64,000 bases of DNA from the NCBI RefSeq assembly GCF_024642105.1, contig NZ_JAHEBT010000056.1, positions 22,531 to 86,530 of the forward strand. The letters run 5' to 3'. Position numbers and translations under genes: made by a program. The notes beneath the pieces were generated by a model. It was not told the DNA's origin. It saw only the letters and a program-made list of their open reading frames with translations, and searched no databases. The stretch's first letter is position 1. Each line of letters opens with the position of its first letter. The DNA comes from Flavobacterium sp. GTDB taxonomy: Bacteria; Bacteroidota; Bacteroidia; Flavobacteriales; Flavobacteriaceae. This document shows positions 14,596 to 60,791 of the stretch, one piece after another.

Positions 14596-14601
14596 TTTAA
14601 A

Positions 14602-14642
14602 GTCATTGCGAGGAGTTGCGAGGCACGAAGCAAAGCAATCTC
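14602..14642. repeat. GTCATTGCGAG...AAGCAATC REP-like element
   Basis: Shares both ends with 20009-20040. Confidence 0.7.
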
Positions 14643-14665
14643 ATCCTCTTTTTTAGTTGGTGCTC

Positions 14666-14727
14666 TGTCATCCTGAACTTGTTTCAGGATCTCAATTTTC
14701 AGATTCTGAAACAAGTTCAGAATGACA
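14666..14727. repeat. TGTCA-tagged REP doublet (inverted pair of hairpin units)
   Basis: TGTCATCCTGAACTTGTTTCAGGATCT...AGATTCTGAAACAAGTTCAGAATGACA; siblings at 22243 and 24966. Confidence 0.85.
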
Positions 14728-20238: not shown

Positions 20239-20264
20239 AGCTATTGCCTTTTGCCTTTTGCCTA
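20239..20264. repeat. TTGCCT(A/T) heptamer half-element
   Basis: CTATTGCCTTTTGCCTTTTGCCTA; same family as 13959-14026. Confidence 0.55.
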
Positions 20265-20272
20265 TAAATCAT

Positions 20273-20280
20273 TACTTTCG
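20273..20280 (+). promoter_or_regulatory. -7 promoter element of ileS (TAnnTTCG variant)
   Basis: TACTTTCG about 25 nt upstream of ATG 20305. Confidence 0.5.
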
Positions 20281-20304
20281 CAACTCGATTTAGAAAAGCA
20301 TACC

Positions 20305-23300
20305 ATGAGCACAAAATTTACTGAATACAAAGGACTTGACTTGCCAAAATCGGCAGAAGAAGTGCTGGATTTTTGGAAGAAAGAAACGATATTTGAGAAA
20401 ACGGTAACTACCCGTGAGGGGAATCCGCCGTACGTGTTTTTTGAGGGGCCGCCTTCGGCAAATGGCTTGCCAGGAATTCACCACGTGATGGCACGTGCTA
20501 TTAAAGATATTTTTTGTCGCTATAAAACTCAAAAAGGGTTCCAAGTAAAGCGTAAAGCAGGTTGGGATACCCACGGTTTGCCGGTTGAATTAGGTACCGA
20601 AAAAGAATTGGGAATTACCAAAGAAGACATTGGTAAAACCATCACCGTAGAAGAATACAACGAGGCGTGCAAACGCACCGTGATGCGCTATACTGACGTT
20701 TGGAACGATCTAACGGAGAAAATGGGGTATTGGGTAGATATGGAAGATCCGTATGTGACGTACAAACCTAAATATATGGAAACCGTGTGGTGGTTGTTGA
20801 AACAAATCTACAACAAGGATTTGATGTACAAAGGGTACACCATTCAGCCGTACTCGCCAAAAGCAGGGACAGGATTGTCTTCGCACGAGGTGAATCAACC
20901 AGGTTCGTACCGCGATGTAACGGACACTACCATTGTAGCACAGTTCAGAAGCCCCCTAACCCCCGAAGGGGGAATTGGTAGCAATTCAATTTTAAAAGCA
21001 TTTGGTCTTAGCTCCCCTCCTTTGGAGGGGCTGGGGGAGGCTTTTTTCTTGGCTTGGACGACAACACCTTGGACTTTGCCATCGAATACCGCTTTGACTG
21101 TAGGTTCAAAAATTGATTATGTGTTGGTGAAAACCTTCAATCAATATACGTTCTTACCAACGAATGTCATTTTGGCTAAAAACTTGGTGGGAAAACAATT
21201 TGGCAAAACGTTTTTCGAATCGGCAGAAGCTGCTGATTTTGAAAATTTCAAAGCAGGAGATAAGAAAATTCCATTTCAAATTTTGGCGGAAGCCAAAGGA
21301 GCGGACTTGGTTGGAATTCGTTACGAGCAATTGATGCCGTTGGCTTTGCCGTATCAAAATGCTGAAGATGCGTTCCGTGTGATTGCAGGAGATTTCGTTA
21401 CTACCGAAGACGGAACAGGAATTGTACATACCGCGCCTACTTTTGGTGCAGATGATGCTAAAGTGGCGGCAGCAGCTACTCCCGAAGTGCCGCCAATGTT
21501 GGTTTTGGACGAAAATGGTACGCCAGTTCCTTTGGTGGATTTACAAGGTAAATTTGTAAATGGACTAGGTGATTTATCAGGTAAATACGTTAAAAACGAA
21601 TACTATAACGAGGGTGAAGCACCAGAGCGTTCTGCCGATGTAGAAATTGCGATTCAGTTAAAAGAAGAAAATAAGGCGTTCAAAGTGGAAAAATACGTCC
21701 ACAGTTACCCACATTGTTGGAGAACGGATAAGCCTATTTTATATTACCCATTGGATTCTTGGTTCATCAAGATTACCGAAGTGCGTGACCGTATGTTTGA
21801 CTTGAACGATTCCATCAACTGGAAGCCAAAAGCTACAGGTGAAGGTCGTTTTGGAAACTGGTTGAAAAACGCTAACGATTGGAATTTATCGCGTTCTAGA
21901 TATTGGGGAATTCCGTTGCCAATTTGGAGAACCGAAGACAAACAAGAAGAAATCTTGATTGGTTCGGTTGAAGAATTGTACCACGAAATTGAAAAATCAA
22001 TTCAGGCGGGTTGTCAAAAAACAAATCCGTTTGCTGGTTTCGAAATTGGAAACATGTCGGAAGCGAATTATGATTTGATTGATTTGCACAAAAATGTAGT
22101 GGACGAAATCACTTTGGTTTCTGCTTCAGGAAAACCAATGCAACGCGAAAGCGATTTGATTGACGTTTGGTTTGATTCAGGCGCAATGCCTTATGCACAA
22201 TGGCATTACCCATTTGAAAATAAAGAACTTATAGATGGCGTTTGTCATTCCGAACTTGTTTCGGAATCTAAAGAGGAGAACCTGAAACAAGTTCAGGTTG
22301 ACAAGCGTATGTTTCCAGCTGATTTTATTGCTGAAGGAGTCGATCAAACCCGTGGTTGGTTTTATACTTTGCACGCTATTGGAACTTTGGTTTTTGACAA
22401 AATCGCGTATAAAAATGTGGTTTCTAACGGATTGGTATTGGACAAAAACGGACAGAAAATGTCGAAACGTTTAGGAAATGCCGTTGATCCTTTTGAAACT
22501 TTGAAAGAATATGGTCCAGATGCGACGCGTTGGTACATGATATCCAATGCGAATCCTTGGGATAATTTAAAGTTTGACTTGGAAGGAATTGCTGAGGTGC
22601 GTCGTAAGTTCTTCGGGACCTTATACAACACCTATTCGTTCTTTAGTTTGTATGCCAATATCGATGGTTTTACCTATTCAGAAGCTGAGATTCCGTTGGC
22701 AGAACGCCCAGAAATTGACCGTTGGATTATATCAGAATTGAATACGTTGATTAAAGATGTCGATGGTTTTTATGCTGATTATGAACCAACCAGAGCGGCT
22801 CGTGCGATTTCTGATTTTGTTCAGGAAAACTTGAGTAACTGGTACGTTCGTTTGTGCAGAAGACGTTTTTGGAAAGGGGAGTATGCGCAAGATAAAATCG
22901 CTGCTTACCAAACCTTATACACTTGTTTGTTAAGTATAAGTAAATTGGCTGCACCAATTGCGCCATTTTATATGGATAAATTATACAGAGACTTAACACA
23001 AGCGACACATTCAGAAGGTTTTGAGAGTGTACATTTGGCAAAATTTCCAGAATACGTTGAAAACTTTGTTGATAAATCGTTGGAAAGCAAAATGCAAAAA
23101 GCCCAAACGATTTCATCATTGGTATTGTCGCTTCGTAAAAAAGAGATGATTAAAGTGCGTCAACCTTTGCAAAAGGTAATGATTCCGGTACTTGACAACA
23201 ATCAAAGAGCTGAAATCGAAGCAGTATCAGACTTGATAAAAGCGGAAGTAAACGTAAAAGAAATTGTGCTTTTAGACGATGCTTCGGGGATTTTGGTCAA

Positions 23301-23814
23301 ACAAATTAAACCTAATTTCAAGACATTAGGACCTCGTTTTGGAAAAGACATGGGCTTGATTTCTAAGGAGATACAAGGATTTTCGCCAGATCAAATCAAT
23401 GAATTGGAACGCGAAGGAAGTTTAGCTATTGTTATTGCGGGAAATACCGTATCTTTAACTATAGAAGATGTAGAAATTACATCGCAGGATATTGAAGGTT
23501 GGTTAGTGGCTAATTCTAACGGAATTACAGTAGCGTTAGACATTACCATTTCGGCAGAATTGAAACAAGAAGGGATTGCGAGAGAATTGGTCAACCGAAT
23601 TCAAAATATCCGTAAAGATTCAGGGTTTGAAGTAACAGATAAAATTAAAGTGACGTTACAACACAATGCCGAATTACAAGCAGCCGTAGTGGCTAATGAA
23701 GAGTACATCAAGTCAGAAACCTTAACCGAAAGTTTGGTTTTTGAAAATGAAGTAGCTAACGGATTAGAAATAGAATTTGACGATATAAAAACAAGAATAA
23801 TAATCACTAAATAA
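20305..23814 (+). CDS. ileS: Isoleucine--tRNA ligase, type 2, with two in-frame repeat-derived inserts
   Basis: FFEGPPSANGLPGIHH, GWDTHGLPVE, AWTTTPWTLPSN, DWNLSRSRYWG, FIAEGVDQTRGW, KMSKR. Confidence 0.98.
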   Translation: MSTKFTEYKGLDLPKSAEEVLDFWKKETIFEKTVTTREGNPPYVFFEGPPSANGLPGIHHVMARAIKDIFCRYKTQKGFQVKRKAGWDTHGLPVELGTEKELGITKEDIGKTITVEEYNEACKRTVMRYTDVWNDLTEKMGYWVDMEDPYVTYKPKYMETVWWLLKQIYNKDLMYKGYTIQPYSPKAGTGLSSHEVNQPGSYRDVTDTTIVAQFRSPLTPEGGIGSNSILKAFGLSSPPLEGLGEAFFLAWTTTPWTLPSNTALTVGSKIDYVLVKTFNQYTFLPTNVILAKNLVGKQFGKTFFESAEAADFENFKAGDKKIPFQILAEAKGADLVGIRYEQLMPLALPYQNAEDAFRVIAGDFVTTEDGTGIVHTAPTFGADDAKVAAAATPEVPPMLVLDENGTPVPLVDLQGKFVNGLGDLSGKYVKNEYYNEGEAPERSADVEIAIQLKEENKAFKVEKYVHSYPHCWRTDKPILYYPLDSWFIKITEVRDRMFDLNDSINWKPKATGEGRFGNWLKNANDWNLSRSRYWGIPLPIWRTEDKQEEILIGSVEELYHEIEKSIQAGCQKTNPFAGFEIGNMSEANYDLIDLHKNVVDEITLVSASGKPMQRESDLIDVWFDSGAMPYAQWHYPFENKELIDGVCHSELVSESKEENLKQVQVDKRMFPADFIAEGVDQTRGWFYTLHAIGTLVFDKIAYKNVVSNGLVLDKNGQKMSKRLGNAVDPFETLKEYGPDATRWYMISNANPWDNLKFDLEGIAEVRRKFFGTLYNTYSFFSLYANIDGFTYSEAEIPLAERPEIDRWIISELNTLIKDVDGFYADYEPTRAARAISDFVQENLSNWYVRLCRRRFWKGEYAQDKIAAYQTLYTCLLSISKLAAPIAPFYMDKLYRDLTQATHSEGFESVHLAKFPEYVENFVDKSLESKMQKAQTISSLVLSLRKKEMIKVRQPLQKVMIPVLDNNQRAEIEAVSDLIKAEVNVKEIVLLDDASGILVKQIKPNFKTLGPRFGKDMGLISKEIQGFSPDQINELEREGSLAIVIAGNTVSLTIEDVEITSQDIEGWLVANSNGITVALDITISAELKQEGIARELVNRIQNIRKDSGFEVTDKIKVTLQHNAELQAAVVANEEYIKSETLTESLVFENEVANGLEIEFDDIKTRIIITK
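20950..21042. repeat. G/C-rich double-hairpin element inserted in-frame in ileS (31 codons)
   Basis: CCCCC-GAA-GGGGG and CCCCTCC-TTT-GGAGGGG hairpins in inverted arms; translates as SPLTPEGG...SPPLEGLGEA. Confidence 0.8.
22243..22303. repeat. TGTCA-tagged REP doublet inserted in-frame in ileS (20 codons)
   Basis: TGTCATTCCGAACTTGTTTCGGAATCT...AGAACCTGAAACAAGTTCAGGTTGACA; homologous to intergenic 14666-14727. Confidence 0.9.
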
Positions 23815-24965: not shown

Positions 24966-25046
24966 TGTTAAACTGAACTTGTTTCAGTTTCTTTCGACTA
25001 CTTTTTGATAATTCATTATGGATTCCGAAATAAATTCGGAATGACA
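24966..25046. repeat. TGTCA-tagged REP doublet between convergent genes
   Basis: TGTTAAACTGAACTTGTTTCAGTTTCT...GGATTCCGAAATAAATTCGGAATGACA. Confidence 0.8.
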
Positions 25047-60711: not shown

Positions 60712-60791
60712 GCCCGGATGGCGGAATTGGTAGACGCGCTGGTCTCAAACACCTGTGGGAAACCGTGCCGGTTCGACTCCGGCTCCGGGTA
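60712..60791 (+). tRNA. tRNA-Leu(CAA)
   Basis: Acceptor stem GCCCGGA/TCCGGGT, D-loop GGAATTGGTAGAC, anticodon loop CTCAAAC, variable arm, T-arm GCCGG-TTCGACT-CCGGC; CCA not encoded. Confidence 0.95.

What the first reader, a model, noticed from the sequence alone, without database searches (positions are those of the whole stretch)
22243..22303. Second, unrelated REP doublet translated in-frame in ileS, with intergenic siblings in this window
Seen: the 20 codons CHSELVSESKEENLKQVQVD lie between WHYPFENKELID and FPADFIAEG. They are a TGTCA-tagged REP doublet homologous to the intergenic copies at 14666-14727 (62 bp) and 24966-25046 (81 bp, with a stop in the equivalent frame). Only the ileS copy is embedded in an open frame. 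Two independent repeat families in one essential gene suggest ongoing insertion filtered by protein tolerance.
Basis: partly seen in the sequence, partly recalled or inferred. Interest (0 to 1): 0.8.

Follow-up and report, generated by a model that had tools for sequence, protein, structure and literature searches.

The report
Old palindromic repeat translated inside ileS
A pair of small hairpin-forming DNA repeats sits in frame in a surface loop of the essential isoleucyl-tRNA synthetase gene of a freshwater Flavobacterium. It is not a fresh insertion but an old allele shared with other genera, and its hairpins are kept intact at the DNA level.

Summary
Window 22243-22303 is an inverted doublet of a TGTC-tagged hairpin repeat, read in frame in ileS, with two intergenic siblings in the window. 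Independent metagenome and metatranscriptome contigs span it, so it is not an assembly error.

The "ongoing insertion" reading is only partly right. The same doublet, at the same loop and in the same frame, occurs in ileS of several Flavobacterium lineages, Wocania, Flaviramulus, Polaribacter and others. The closest sister lineage (about 92% nt identity) lacks it. All these copies share a non-canonical right unit, which points to one old origin followed by allele exchange.

Inside ileS, the unit hairpins show compensatory changes. Their synonymous sites are about four times more conserved than those of flanking codons. That indicates a constraint at the nucleotide level.

The same loop carries at least three unrelated palindromic repeat families in other Bacteroidota, so it is a permissive hot spot.

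The repeat belongs to the known CGTC/TGTC-tagged REP superfamily (Di Nocera 2013). In other genomes its units flank small GIY-YIG nuclease genes, as NTS/SRM repeats flank ssnA (Chenal 2025). In-frame REP dimers, including one in an IleRS, are already documented. It is a new member of a known kind, of moderate interest.

The parts
20305..23814 (+). ileS (type-2 isoleucyl-tRNA synthetase), 1169 aa counted from ATG 20305; this is the host gene
   Evidence: ORF listing and translation. Best solved relative is P. megaterium IleRS2, 8c8w, E 2.5e-224. Homologues carry Pfam tRNA-synt_1 and Anticodon_1.
22243..22267 (+). Left REP unit: tag TGTC, 8-bp stem ATTCCGAA/TTCGGAAT, loop CTTGT; read as C H S E L V S E (S)
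   Evidence: All 8 stem pairs are kept across 18 ileS-resident copies, 3 of them through double changes.
22268..22278 (+). 11-nt spacer between the units (..S K E E..); the most variable part of the insert
   Evidence: Amino-acid divergence 0.61 among 9 filled alleles, against 0.08 in the flanks.
22279..22303 (-). Right REP unit in inverted orientation (TGTC AACCTGAA CTTGT TTCAGGTT on the minus strand); read as N L K Q V Q V D. The non-canonical AA..TT stem ends mark the ileS-resident lineage.
   Evidence: Synonymous divergence is only 0.03. Second stem base A was found in 0 of 45 sampled partner units.
22237..22311 (+). Allele-specific segment (25 codons, G V [insert] K R M), which stands in place of the 4 codons (QNKS / QDKS) of empty alleles
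   Evidence: Comparison with the closest empty alleles P0002-P0016 and L243/L244. RNA-library contigs of the empty form carry 20-21 letters in place of 83-84.
14666..14727 (.). Intergenic sibling doublet (canonical units ATCCTGAA and ATTCTGAA, 12-nt spacer), 5 nt downstream of the yicC-like ORF
24966..25046 (.). Intergenic sibling doublet, degenerate left unit (TGTTA tag), longer spacer, between convergent genes

Best explanation
What it is (shown): window 22243-22303 is an inverted doublet (REPIN-like) of a TGTC-tagged hairpin repeat from the CGTC-tagged REP superfamily.

Association (shown in other genomes): units of exactly this family bracket small single-domain GIY-YIG nuclease genes in the order unit, gene, inverted unit. 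NTS/SRM repeats bracket ssnA in the same way. The doublet therefore looks like a gene-less derivative of such an element (inferred).

Origin (inferred): one doublet entered, in frame, the loop of type-2 IleRS between the WHYPFENKxxID segment and the FPADFIAEGxDQTRGWF strand. This happened long ago in Flavobacteriaceae. It has persisted as a 'filled' allele alongside the 'empty' allele. The two alleles appear to be swapped between lineages by short-tract homologous recombination, because closest relatives differ in state and the flanking codons travel with the insert.

Expression: it is transcribed and presumably translated as a 21-residue hydrophilic loop that the enzyme tolerates.

Constraint (shown): the two unit hairpins, but not the spacer, the tags or the long inter-unit hairpin, are held constant or change by compensating pairs, even where this changes amino acids. 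The cause is inferred. Either the hairpins are selected as nucleic-acid structures (ssDNA target of a GIY-YIG nuclease or other host factor, or an mRNA structure), or hairpin-templated repair keeps them paired.
For: Family identity: the anatomy fits Di Nocera et al. 2013 (PMC3733652). That paper describes a CGTC tag often changed to TGTC, a stem of 8-9 bp starting AT, a loop of 4-5 nt, mostly inverted dimers and intragenic units. Its supplement lists a CGTC-1 dimer inside E. litoralis isoleucyl-tRNA synthetase.

Distribution: the exact 25-mer occurs in more than 120 loci across many phyla.

GIY-YIG link:
- 97-106-aa GIY-YIG ORFs (PF01541, E down to 3e-16) lie 10-90 nt from a unit in L144, L157, L124 and L091.
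- They are bracketed by inverted units in L144 and L157 and in Aquaticitalea and related Flavobacteriaceae loci L250-L256.
- This matches the NTS-ssnA-NTS layout of Chenal et al. 2025 (PMC11893778).

Old shared allele:
- Same site, frame and architecture in 23 of 211 IleRS sequences compared. Each filled lineage has closer empty relatives than filled ones. Fitch count is 13 changes, root empty.
- The non-canonical right unit is shared across genera and absent from 45 sampled partner units.
- Within the window's species cluster (WIN, L209, L239, L245; 97-100% nt) all four are filled. The sister lineage at about 92% nt is empty, with unrelated loop codons.

Constraint:
- Local hairpins are 93.8% paired. 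8 of 16 pairs have double-sided changes, 19 cells against 5.1 expected, 0 of 500 shuffles reach this.
- The long hairpin shows no covariation.
- Synonymous third-position divergence is 0.092 in unit codons against 0.40 in flanks, reached by 0 of 2000 resamples. Spacer amino-acid divergence is 0.61.
- The two Polaribacter alleles differ by T>C plus A>G in paired positions, which changes S>P and E>G.

Tolerated loop: the insert aligns as a pure gap between F538 and Q539 of 8c8w.

Reality and expression.
Against: - No GIY-YIG (Ssn-like) gene and no transposase was found in the 64-kb window, and the rest of the genome could not be searched.
- The units do not match the published SRM search pattern.
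- Membership of the flanking GIY-YIG proteins in cd10448 (Ssn) could not be tested. They hit only UPF0213 structures, weakly.
- No clear recombination tract is visible around the insert. Any imported segment would be about 100 nt or less.
- Flavivirga has the two units in swapped order, Polaribacter has different flanks, and tags differ (CGTC, TGTC or lost). More than one insertion event is therefore not excluded.
- The covariation counts rest on 18 related sequences.
- The structural claim (surface loop) rests on a sequence alignment only, because the AlphaFold model failed.
Confidence: 0.65

Rival explanations
1. Recurrent independent insertion. The loop, or its DNA, is a target hot spot. 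Members of the repeat family have inserted there many times in different lineages, including recently in the window's lineage.
For: At least three unrelated, strongly palindromic families occupy the same loop in other Bacteroidota (L213/L214/L226; L216; L221/L222/L230; z from -3.4 to -9.0). P0053 carries the other family's peptide there. The units are in swapped order in Flavivirga, and tags and flanks vary. The closest sister lineage is empty.
Against: Copies in different genera share a non-canonical right unit that was absent from 45 sampled genomic partners. They also share the same frame, nearly the same spacer length and the flanking G...KR(M/A) codons. A transposition would not replace four target codons. 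No other family copy lies near the filled loci.
Confidence: 0.2
2. Neutral relic. The insert is a passively tolerated peptide loop. The apparent conservation of the hairpins reflects recent horizontal spread of the segment or gene conversion from genomic copies, not any constraint.
For: The distribution is patchy and alleles appear to be exchanged. The stem variants of the left unit (ATTCCGAA, ATTCTGAA, ATGCTGAA, ATCCTGAA) are all common variants of the family at large, as conversion from genomic copies would produce.
Against: Within the same 75-nt segment the spacer and junction codons are highly diverged, while the unit codons are nearly frozen at synonymous sites. A recent spread would not give that contrast. 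The right unit is non-canonical, so it is not being overwritten from the genomic pool. The rare Leu codon CTG, paired with CAG, is kept in 8 of the 9 colinear alleles compared.
Confidence: 0.1
3. Artefact. The insert is an assembly chimera at a repeat, or a chance resemblance of an ordinary lineage-specific loop to the repeats.
For: Short-read assemblies do break at this repeat (X1 contigs end at 22216 and start at 22222).
Against: Contigs from four independent studies and an RNA library span it exactly. Match to the family pattern is 25/25 and 23/25, with 0 expected by chance. Ten GTDB species genomes carry it.
Confidence: 0.02

Closest known systems
CGTC-tagged REPs (Di Nocera, De Gregorio & Rocco 2013, BMC Genomics 14:522), including intragenic dimers
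   Same: Unpaired CGTC/TGTC tag, 8-bp stem starting AT, 5-nt loop, short tail and mostly inverted dimers. Found in Bacteroidetes among other phyla. In-frame copies are documented, including a CGTC-1 dimer in E. litoralis isoleucyl-tRNA synthetase.
   Different: The stem here is AT-rich (ATTCCGAA) and the loop is CTTGT, where the described families are GC-rich. The tail is CT(A/C), not CCA. The ileS right unit starts AA. The persistence across genera, the constraint on the hairpins and the use of this loop as a hot spot are not reported there. I did not compare the E. litoralis insertion site (residues 467-488 of 965) with this loop.
NTS / SRM repeats and the Ssn family of GIY-YIG single-strand nucleases (Chenal et al. 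2025, Nat Commun 16:2388)
   Same: The tag-plus-hairpin layout matches (NTS = CGTCATTCCCGCGMAVGCGGGAATCYRG). Units bracket a roughly 100-aa single-domain GIY-YIG gene in inverted orientation. The distribution across phyla is wide.
   Different: The units fail the published SRM pattern. Nuclease specificity is untested. No such gene lies in the window. NTS are reported as rarely intragenic (2%), and no conserved in-frame copy is described there.
Rickettsia palindromic elements (RPE) inserted in frame in protein-coding genes (Ogata et al. 2000, Science 290:347; from my own knowledge, and cited as refs 13 and 14)
   Same: Palindromic repeats are translated in frame inside essential genes, conserved among related species and presumed to sit in tolerated surface positions. 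RPE-4 and RPE-6 are CGTC-type according to Di Nocera.
   Different: RPEs are longer (about 100-150 nt) and belong to a different host clade. Here the doublet is 61 nt, it lives in free-living Bacteroidota, and there is explicit evidence of constraint at synonymous sites.
REPIN-RAYT systems (Bertels & Rainey 2011, PLoS Genet 7:e1002132)
   Same: Two inverted REP units with a short spacer, non-autonomous and multi-copy.
   Different: The tag is TGTC rather than GTAG, and there is no associated Y1 transposase (Di Nocera: none for CGTC REPs). The long doublet hairpin shows no covariation here.

Membership tests
CGTC-tagged REP superfamily (Di Nocera 2013) | Unpaired terminal tag CGTC (TGTC variant accepted) | tested here: met
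   TGTC at 22243-22246 and, on the minus strand, at 22303-22300. Wocania, Flaviramulus and Flavivirga ileS copies have CGTC.
CGTC-tagged REP superfamily (Di Nocera 2013) | Stem of 8-9 bp beginning with AT; loop of 4-5 nt | tested here: met
   Left unit is ATTCCGAA / CTTGT / TTCGGAAT. The right unit has an 8-bp stem and 5-nt loop but starts AA, which is non-canonical.
CGTC-tagged REP superfamily (Di Nocera 2013) | Short 3' tail, consensus CCA | tested here: not met
   The tail is CTA or CTC in the window copies and in most of the 129 sampled units.
CGTC-tagged REP superfamily (Di Nocera 2013) | Interspersed multi-copy family, mostly inverted dimers | tested here: inconclusive
   There are three doublets in 64 kb. 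45 of 129 sampled units have an inverted partner within 140 nt. The genome-wide copy number of the source organism could not be measured.
SRM/NTS repeats of Ssn GIY-YIG nucleases (Chenal 2025) | Matches the SRM search pattern HGTCWYN(0-2)YYVSBRHN(0-5)WNVSBRGN(0-2)RNCYNB | tested here: not met
   None of 5 units tested matches, whereas a canonical NTS does. The failure is at the GC-rich stem positions.
SRM/NTS repeats of Ssn GIY-YIG nucleases (Chenal 2025) | Units flank a small single-domain GIY-YIG gene on both sides | tested here: met
   Met for the family in other genomes: L144 and L157, L250-L256, and adjacent on one side in L124 and L091. Not met in the window, where no GIY-YIG ORF was found.
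SRM/NTS repeats of Ssn GIY-YIG nucleases (Chenal 2025) | The nuclease belongs to cd10448 and cuts ssDNA next to the hairpin | not testable with these tools
   Only Pfam PF01541 and weak UPF0213 structure hits were obtained. There is no CDD library and no biochemistry here.
REPIN-RAYT | GTAG tag and a REP-flanked Y1 (IS200-like) transposase | tested here: not met
   The tag is TGTC. The genes next to the window copies are yicC-like, gmk, lspA and an ORF with no Pfam hit. Di Nocera reports no transposase for CGTC REPs. The whole genome was not searched.
MITE (TIR plus target-site duplication) | Target-site duplication flanking the element | tested here: inconclusive
   GCGT occurs on both sides in the window but is not conserved in other filled alleles. 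The empty allele differs by replacement of 4 codons, not by simple absence.
Rfam RNA families | Match to a curated covariance model | tested here: not met
   Only a tRNA reaches threshold in the window. The region itself gives only chance miRNA-like hits with E of 0.19 or more.

The most novel reading that the evidence does not exclude
The two hairpins inside ileS are functional nucleic-acid elements kept by purifying selection for longer than genus-level divergence. One possibility is that they are recognition sites for an Ssn-like single-strand nuclease that governs which incoming ileS DNA can recombine, which would also explain the filled/empty allele exchange. Another is that they are mRNA structures that pace translation between the CP/editing insertion, which includes the editing domain, and the second half of the catalytic fold. 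More generally, the loop after WHYPF in type-2 IleRS would then be a docking site that repeatedly captures palindromic mobile DNA.
Probability: 0.25. Interest if true: 0.7.

Novelty: new member of a known kind. Interest (0 to 1): 0.5.

Why it matters
REP-type hairpin repeats are abundant, but what keeps them intact is still debated. The candidates are mobility, host function and repair bias. A copy fixed inside a highly conserved essential gene is a natural experiment, because protein-level and DNA-level constraints can be separated codon by codon.

Here the DNA-level signal dominates. Synonymous sites are frozen, and paired changes alter amino acids. The case also links an AT-rich repeat family found in many phyla to small GIY-YIG nuclease genes, and the published SRM pattern misses this family. 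Finally, it identifies one IleRS loop that accepts 20-30 extra residues of at least four different origins. That is useful for enzyme engineering and for annotating odd IleRS length variants.

Tried and rejected
- Rfam scan of the window and of the region: no family.
- Full-text search for the repeat core sequence: nothing relevant. A search for RPE plus compensatory changes returned only retina papers.
- AlphaFold2 of the 1169-aa protein with a 47-sequence alignment: mean pLDDT 40.6, unusable. No fold search was run.
- Long doublet hairpin as the conserved structure: rejected. It is 75% paired with no covariation above shuffles, although it is the minimum-energy fold of the single sequence.
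- Recombination tract around the insert: sliding-window and base-by-base comparison with the sister empty allele shows only about 4 extra differences in the 15 nt upstream. Inconclusive.
- Target-site duplication: not conserved.
- First regex for family units was off by one and gave zero hits. It was corrected.
- GIY-YIG or other mobilising gene in the window: none, by a profile built from the loci.
- Inserts at the same loop in Patescibacteria, Verrucomicrobiia, Flavihumibacter and Saccharibacteria: not significantly structured (z above -2), so they are not counted as repeat captures.
- P0130, a GIY-YIG homologue seen on many contigs: no flanking units. The association is therefore not universal.
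Full report
**1. Observation**

Window 22243-22303 reads TGTCATTCCGAACTTGTTTCGGAAT, then CTAAAGAGGAG, then AACCTGAAACAAGTTCAGGTTGACA. The two 25-nt units are inverted copies of each other. Each is itself a hairpin with an 8-bp stem and a 5-nt loop.

The stretch lies in the 1187-codon ORF 20251..23814, whose likely start is ATG 20305. The ORF encodes a type-2 isoleucyl-tRNA synthetase. The stretch is read as CHSELVSESKEENLKQVQVD.

The degenerate unit pattern finds five units in the window against none in 100 shuffles. They form three doublets, at 14666-14727, 22243-22303 and 24966-25046. The 75-nt stretch folds at -35.8 kcal/mol, z = -7.2.

The two other doublets are intergenic. In the equivalent frame they carry stop codons. 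Of the six frames of the ileS copy two are open, and the one used is the only hydrophilic one.

**2. It is real and it is expressed**

Contigs from four independent metagenome studies cover the insert with 0-1 differences. The longest are 2225 nt and 319 nt. No empty form was seen at 99% or higher identity.

A 133-nt contig from a riverine metatranscriptome library covers 22227-22359 exactly. Contigs of a closely related empty allele (LIDQNKS) occur in the same libraries. DNA carry-over in RNA libraries cannot be excluded.

**3. Relation to orthologues**

In 79 of 80 Flavobacteriaceae species first sampled, the loop reads WHYPFENKxxID-xxxx-(F/Y)PA(D/N) with four residues. The window has G, then 21 residues, then KRM. 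That is a net gain of 63 nt.

The solved P. megaterium IleRS2 (8c8w) aligns with a pure gap here, between F538 and Q539. The site lies between the WFDSG segment and the DQTRGWF motif. From general knowledge of class I synthetases, both segments line the active site. The insert therefore sits at the tip of the excursion that connects them. This placement is an inference, because the AlphaFold model was unusable (mean pLDDT 40.6).

**4. The insert is an old, shared allele**

- Among the 120 closest IleRS proteins, 12 carry the same insert at the same place. They include F. aquatile, at about 86% identity outside the loop.
- A site-anchored DNA pattern found it in ten GTDB species, including Wocania, Flaviramulus and a NORP142 MAG.
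- An unbiased pattern, requiring only a longer loop, added Polaribacter, Flavivirga, NBU2973 and others, plus metagenome loci.
- The nearest relatives of the window (96-97.5% amino-acid identity outside the loop, about 92% nt) are empty, with loop IDQ(N/D)KSFP.
- The four sequences of the window's own species cluster (97-100% nt) are all filled.
- On a neighbour-joining tree of 211 sequences the state changes 13 times by parsimony, with empty at the root. Every filled lineage has closer empty relatives than filled ones.
- Empty alleles are not deletion derivatives, because four unrelated codons stand where 25 stand in the filled allele.

Three features point to common descent of the ileS copies:
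- The right unit is AACCTGAA...TTCAGGTT. Its second stem base is A. Among 45 partner units sampled across phyla this base was T (38) or C (7), never A.
- The spacer length is nearly constant.
- The flanking G...KR(M/A) codons are shared, but written with different synonymous codons (CGT, CGC, CGA, AGA).

I therefore read the pattern as an old filled/empty dimorphism redistributed by short-tract recombination. No recombination tract could be delimited. The swapped units in Flavivirga and the different flanks in Polaribacter leave room for more than one event.

**5. Nucleotide-level constraint**

I aligned 18 ileS-resident copies (A3).
- The two local hairpins are 93.8% paired. Double-sided changes occur in 8 of 16 pairs, 19 cells against 5.1 expected, and 0 of 500 shuffles reach this. 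Slid controls collapse.
- The long inter-unit hairpin shows no covariation: 5 pairs against 6.7 expected.

I then compared nine colinear filled alleles.
- Third-position divergence at codons with the same amino acid is 0.40 in 76 flanking codons.
- It is 0.092 in the 17 unit codons, and 0.03 in the right unit. None of 2000 resamples of flank codons is as low.
- Most of the residual differences are the coupled TCC/TCG to TCT/TCA switch.
- The spacer is the most variable part (amino-acid divergence 0.61). The unit codons vary more in amino acids (0.15-0.19) than the flanks (0.08).

Paired changes can alter the protein. In the two Polaribacter alleles, S>P and E>G accompany a T>C plus A>G pair. 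The tags are less conserved than the hairpins.

So what is conserved is the hairpin, not the peptide. The possible causes are selection on a DNA or RNA structure, hairpin-templated repair, or conversion from genomic copies. Conversion fits the left unit but not the non-canonical right unit.

**6. A permissive hot spot**

The same loop carries other inserts of 20-28 residues in other Bacteroidota. Their DNA is strongly palindromic and unrelated to this family:
- PSLT..PEEKGT..SPSGRKKEG in three Flavobacteriaceae MAGs (z from -3.4 to -4.3).
- LPPTPSEGGGDSLPSGEGQEG in a Cryomorphaceae MAG (z = -4.6).
- GLTPNPSPGERG...SGEGRGEA in Chryseolinea and Cytophagales (z from -5.2 to -9.0).

One Flavobacterium protein (P0053) has SPLTPEGGI there, which is the peptide of the other repeat family found in this gene.

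Longer loops in Patescibacteria, Verrucomicrobiia and Saccharibacteria are not significantly structured, and I do not count them.

**7. What the repeat family is**

No Rfam family matches.

The anatomy fits the CGTC-tagged REP superfamily of Di Nocera et al. 2013: a CGTC tag often changed to TGTC, a stem of 8-9 bp starting AT, a loop of 4-5 nt, mostly inverted dimers, five phyla including Bacteroidetes, intragenic units present, and no dedicated transposase. Their supplement lists a CGTC-1 dimer in frame in E. litoralis isoleucyl-tRNA synthetase.

The exact 25-mer occurs in more than 120 loci from Patescibacteria, Spirochaetota, Melainabacteria, Proteobacteria, Bacteroidota and others.

Chenal et al. 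2025 showed that the Neisseria member of this superfamily (NTS/dRS3) is bound and cut as single-stranded DNA by SsnA. SsnA is a 94-aa GIY-YIG nuclease whose gene is bracketed by the repeats. For the present family:
- GIY-YIG ORFs of 97-106 aa (Pfam E down to 3e-16) lie 10-90 nt from units in four to five of the 120 loci.
- They are bracketed by inverted units in L144 and L157, and in Aquaticitalea lipolytica and related Flavobacteriaceae. There the gene's stop codon lies in the TGACA tag.
- The units do not match the published SRM pattern, because their stems are AT-rich.
- The window itself holds no such gene.

The doublet thus looks like the two ends of a unit-nuclease-unit element with the gene removed. 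How such elements move is not known.

**8. Verdict**

The finding is a new member of known kinds, namely CGTC/SRM-type repeats and in-frame palindromic repeats as in Rickettsia. Three additions raise its interest to moderate:
- persistence across genera with patchy allele distribution,
- hairpin-specific constraint visible at synonymous sites,
- a loop that has captured at least four palindromic families.

Noticed in passing
window 20950-21040 (ileS residues about 216-245): This is the other in-frame repeat in ileS. It has two GC-rich hairpins, CCCCC-GAA-GGGGG and CCCCTCC-TTT-GGAGGGG, read as SPLTPEGG...SSPPLEGLGE. The solved P. megaterium enzyme has 6 residues where this protein has 30. Most close Flavobacterium relatives carry some insert at this site.
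   Followed up: partly
window 14601-14645: A different GTCAT-tagged repeat (AAGTCATTGCGAGGAGTTGCGAGGCACGAAGCAAAGCAATCTC) lies directly beside the 14666 doublet. Similar GTCATTGCGAGG pieces appear next to units in loci from other phyla (L158, L183).
   Followed up: no
P0053 (Flavobacterium IleRS), loop after WHYPF: The loop reads EKSPLTPEGGIPPIADF. This is the peptide of the first repeat family, sitting at the second site without much change in length.
   Followed up: no
L250-L256 (Aquaticitalea lipolytica and related Flavobacteriaceae), positions 549-922: A 106-aa GIY-YIG gene between uvrA and a DUF3667 gene is bracketed by inverted family units. The gene's last codons and its TGA stop are supplied by the right unit.
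   Followed up: yes
L124 (Winogradskyella immobilis, whole contig of 461 nt): The contig consists only of a GIY-YIG gene plus one unit. Many homologues sit on contigs of 0.5-2 kb. This suggests the gene-plus-repeat unit is multi-copy and breaks assemblies.
   Followed up: partly
L245 (P0001, same species cluster as the window), ileS nt 600-1050: This ileS is 97-100% identical to the window, except for a mosaic stretch at 70-83% identity that also carries an extra 31-residue insert (KSANIEVLKGIMSQKETEGVVEAINFNKEIK). It looks like within-species recombination in the CP1 region of the gene, which holds the editing domain.
   Followed up: no
RNA libraries X25 and X29 laid on window 22050-22500: Filled and empty ileS alleles, with flanks at least 97% identical to the window, co-occur in the same freshwater and river samples at similar contig depth.
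   Followed up: partly
window 60712-60791: A tRNA gene with a long variable arm; it is the only Rfam match above threshold in the window.
   Followed up: no
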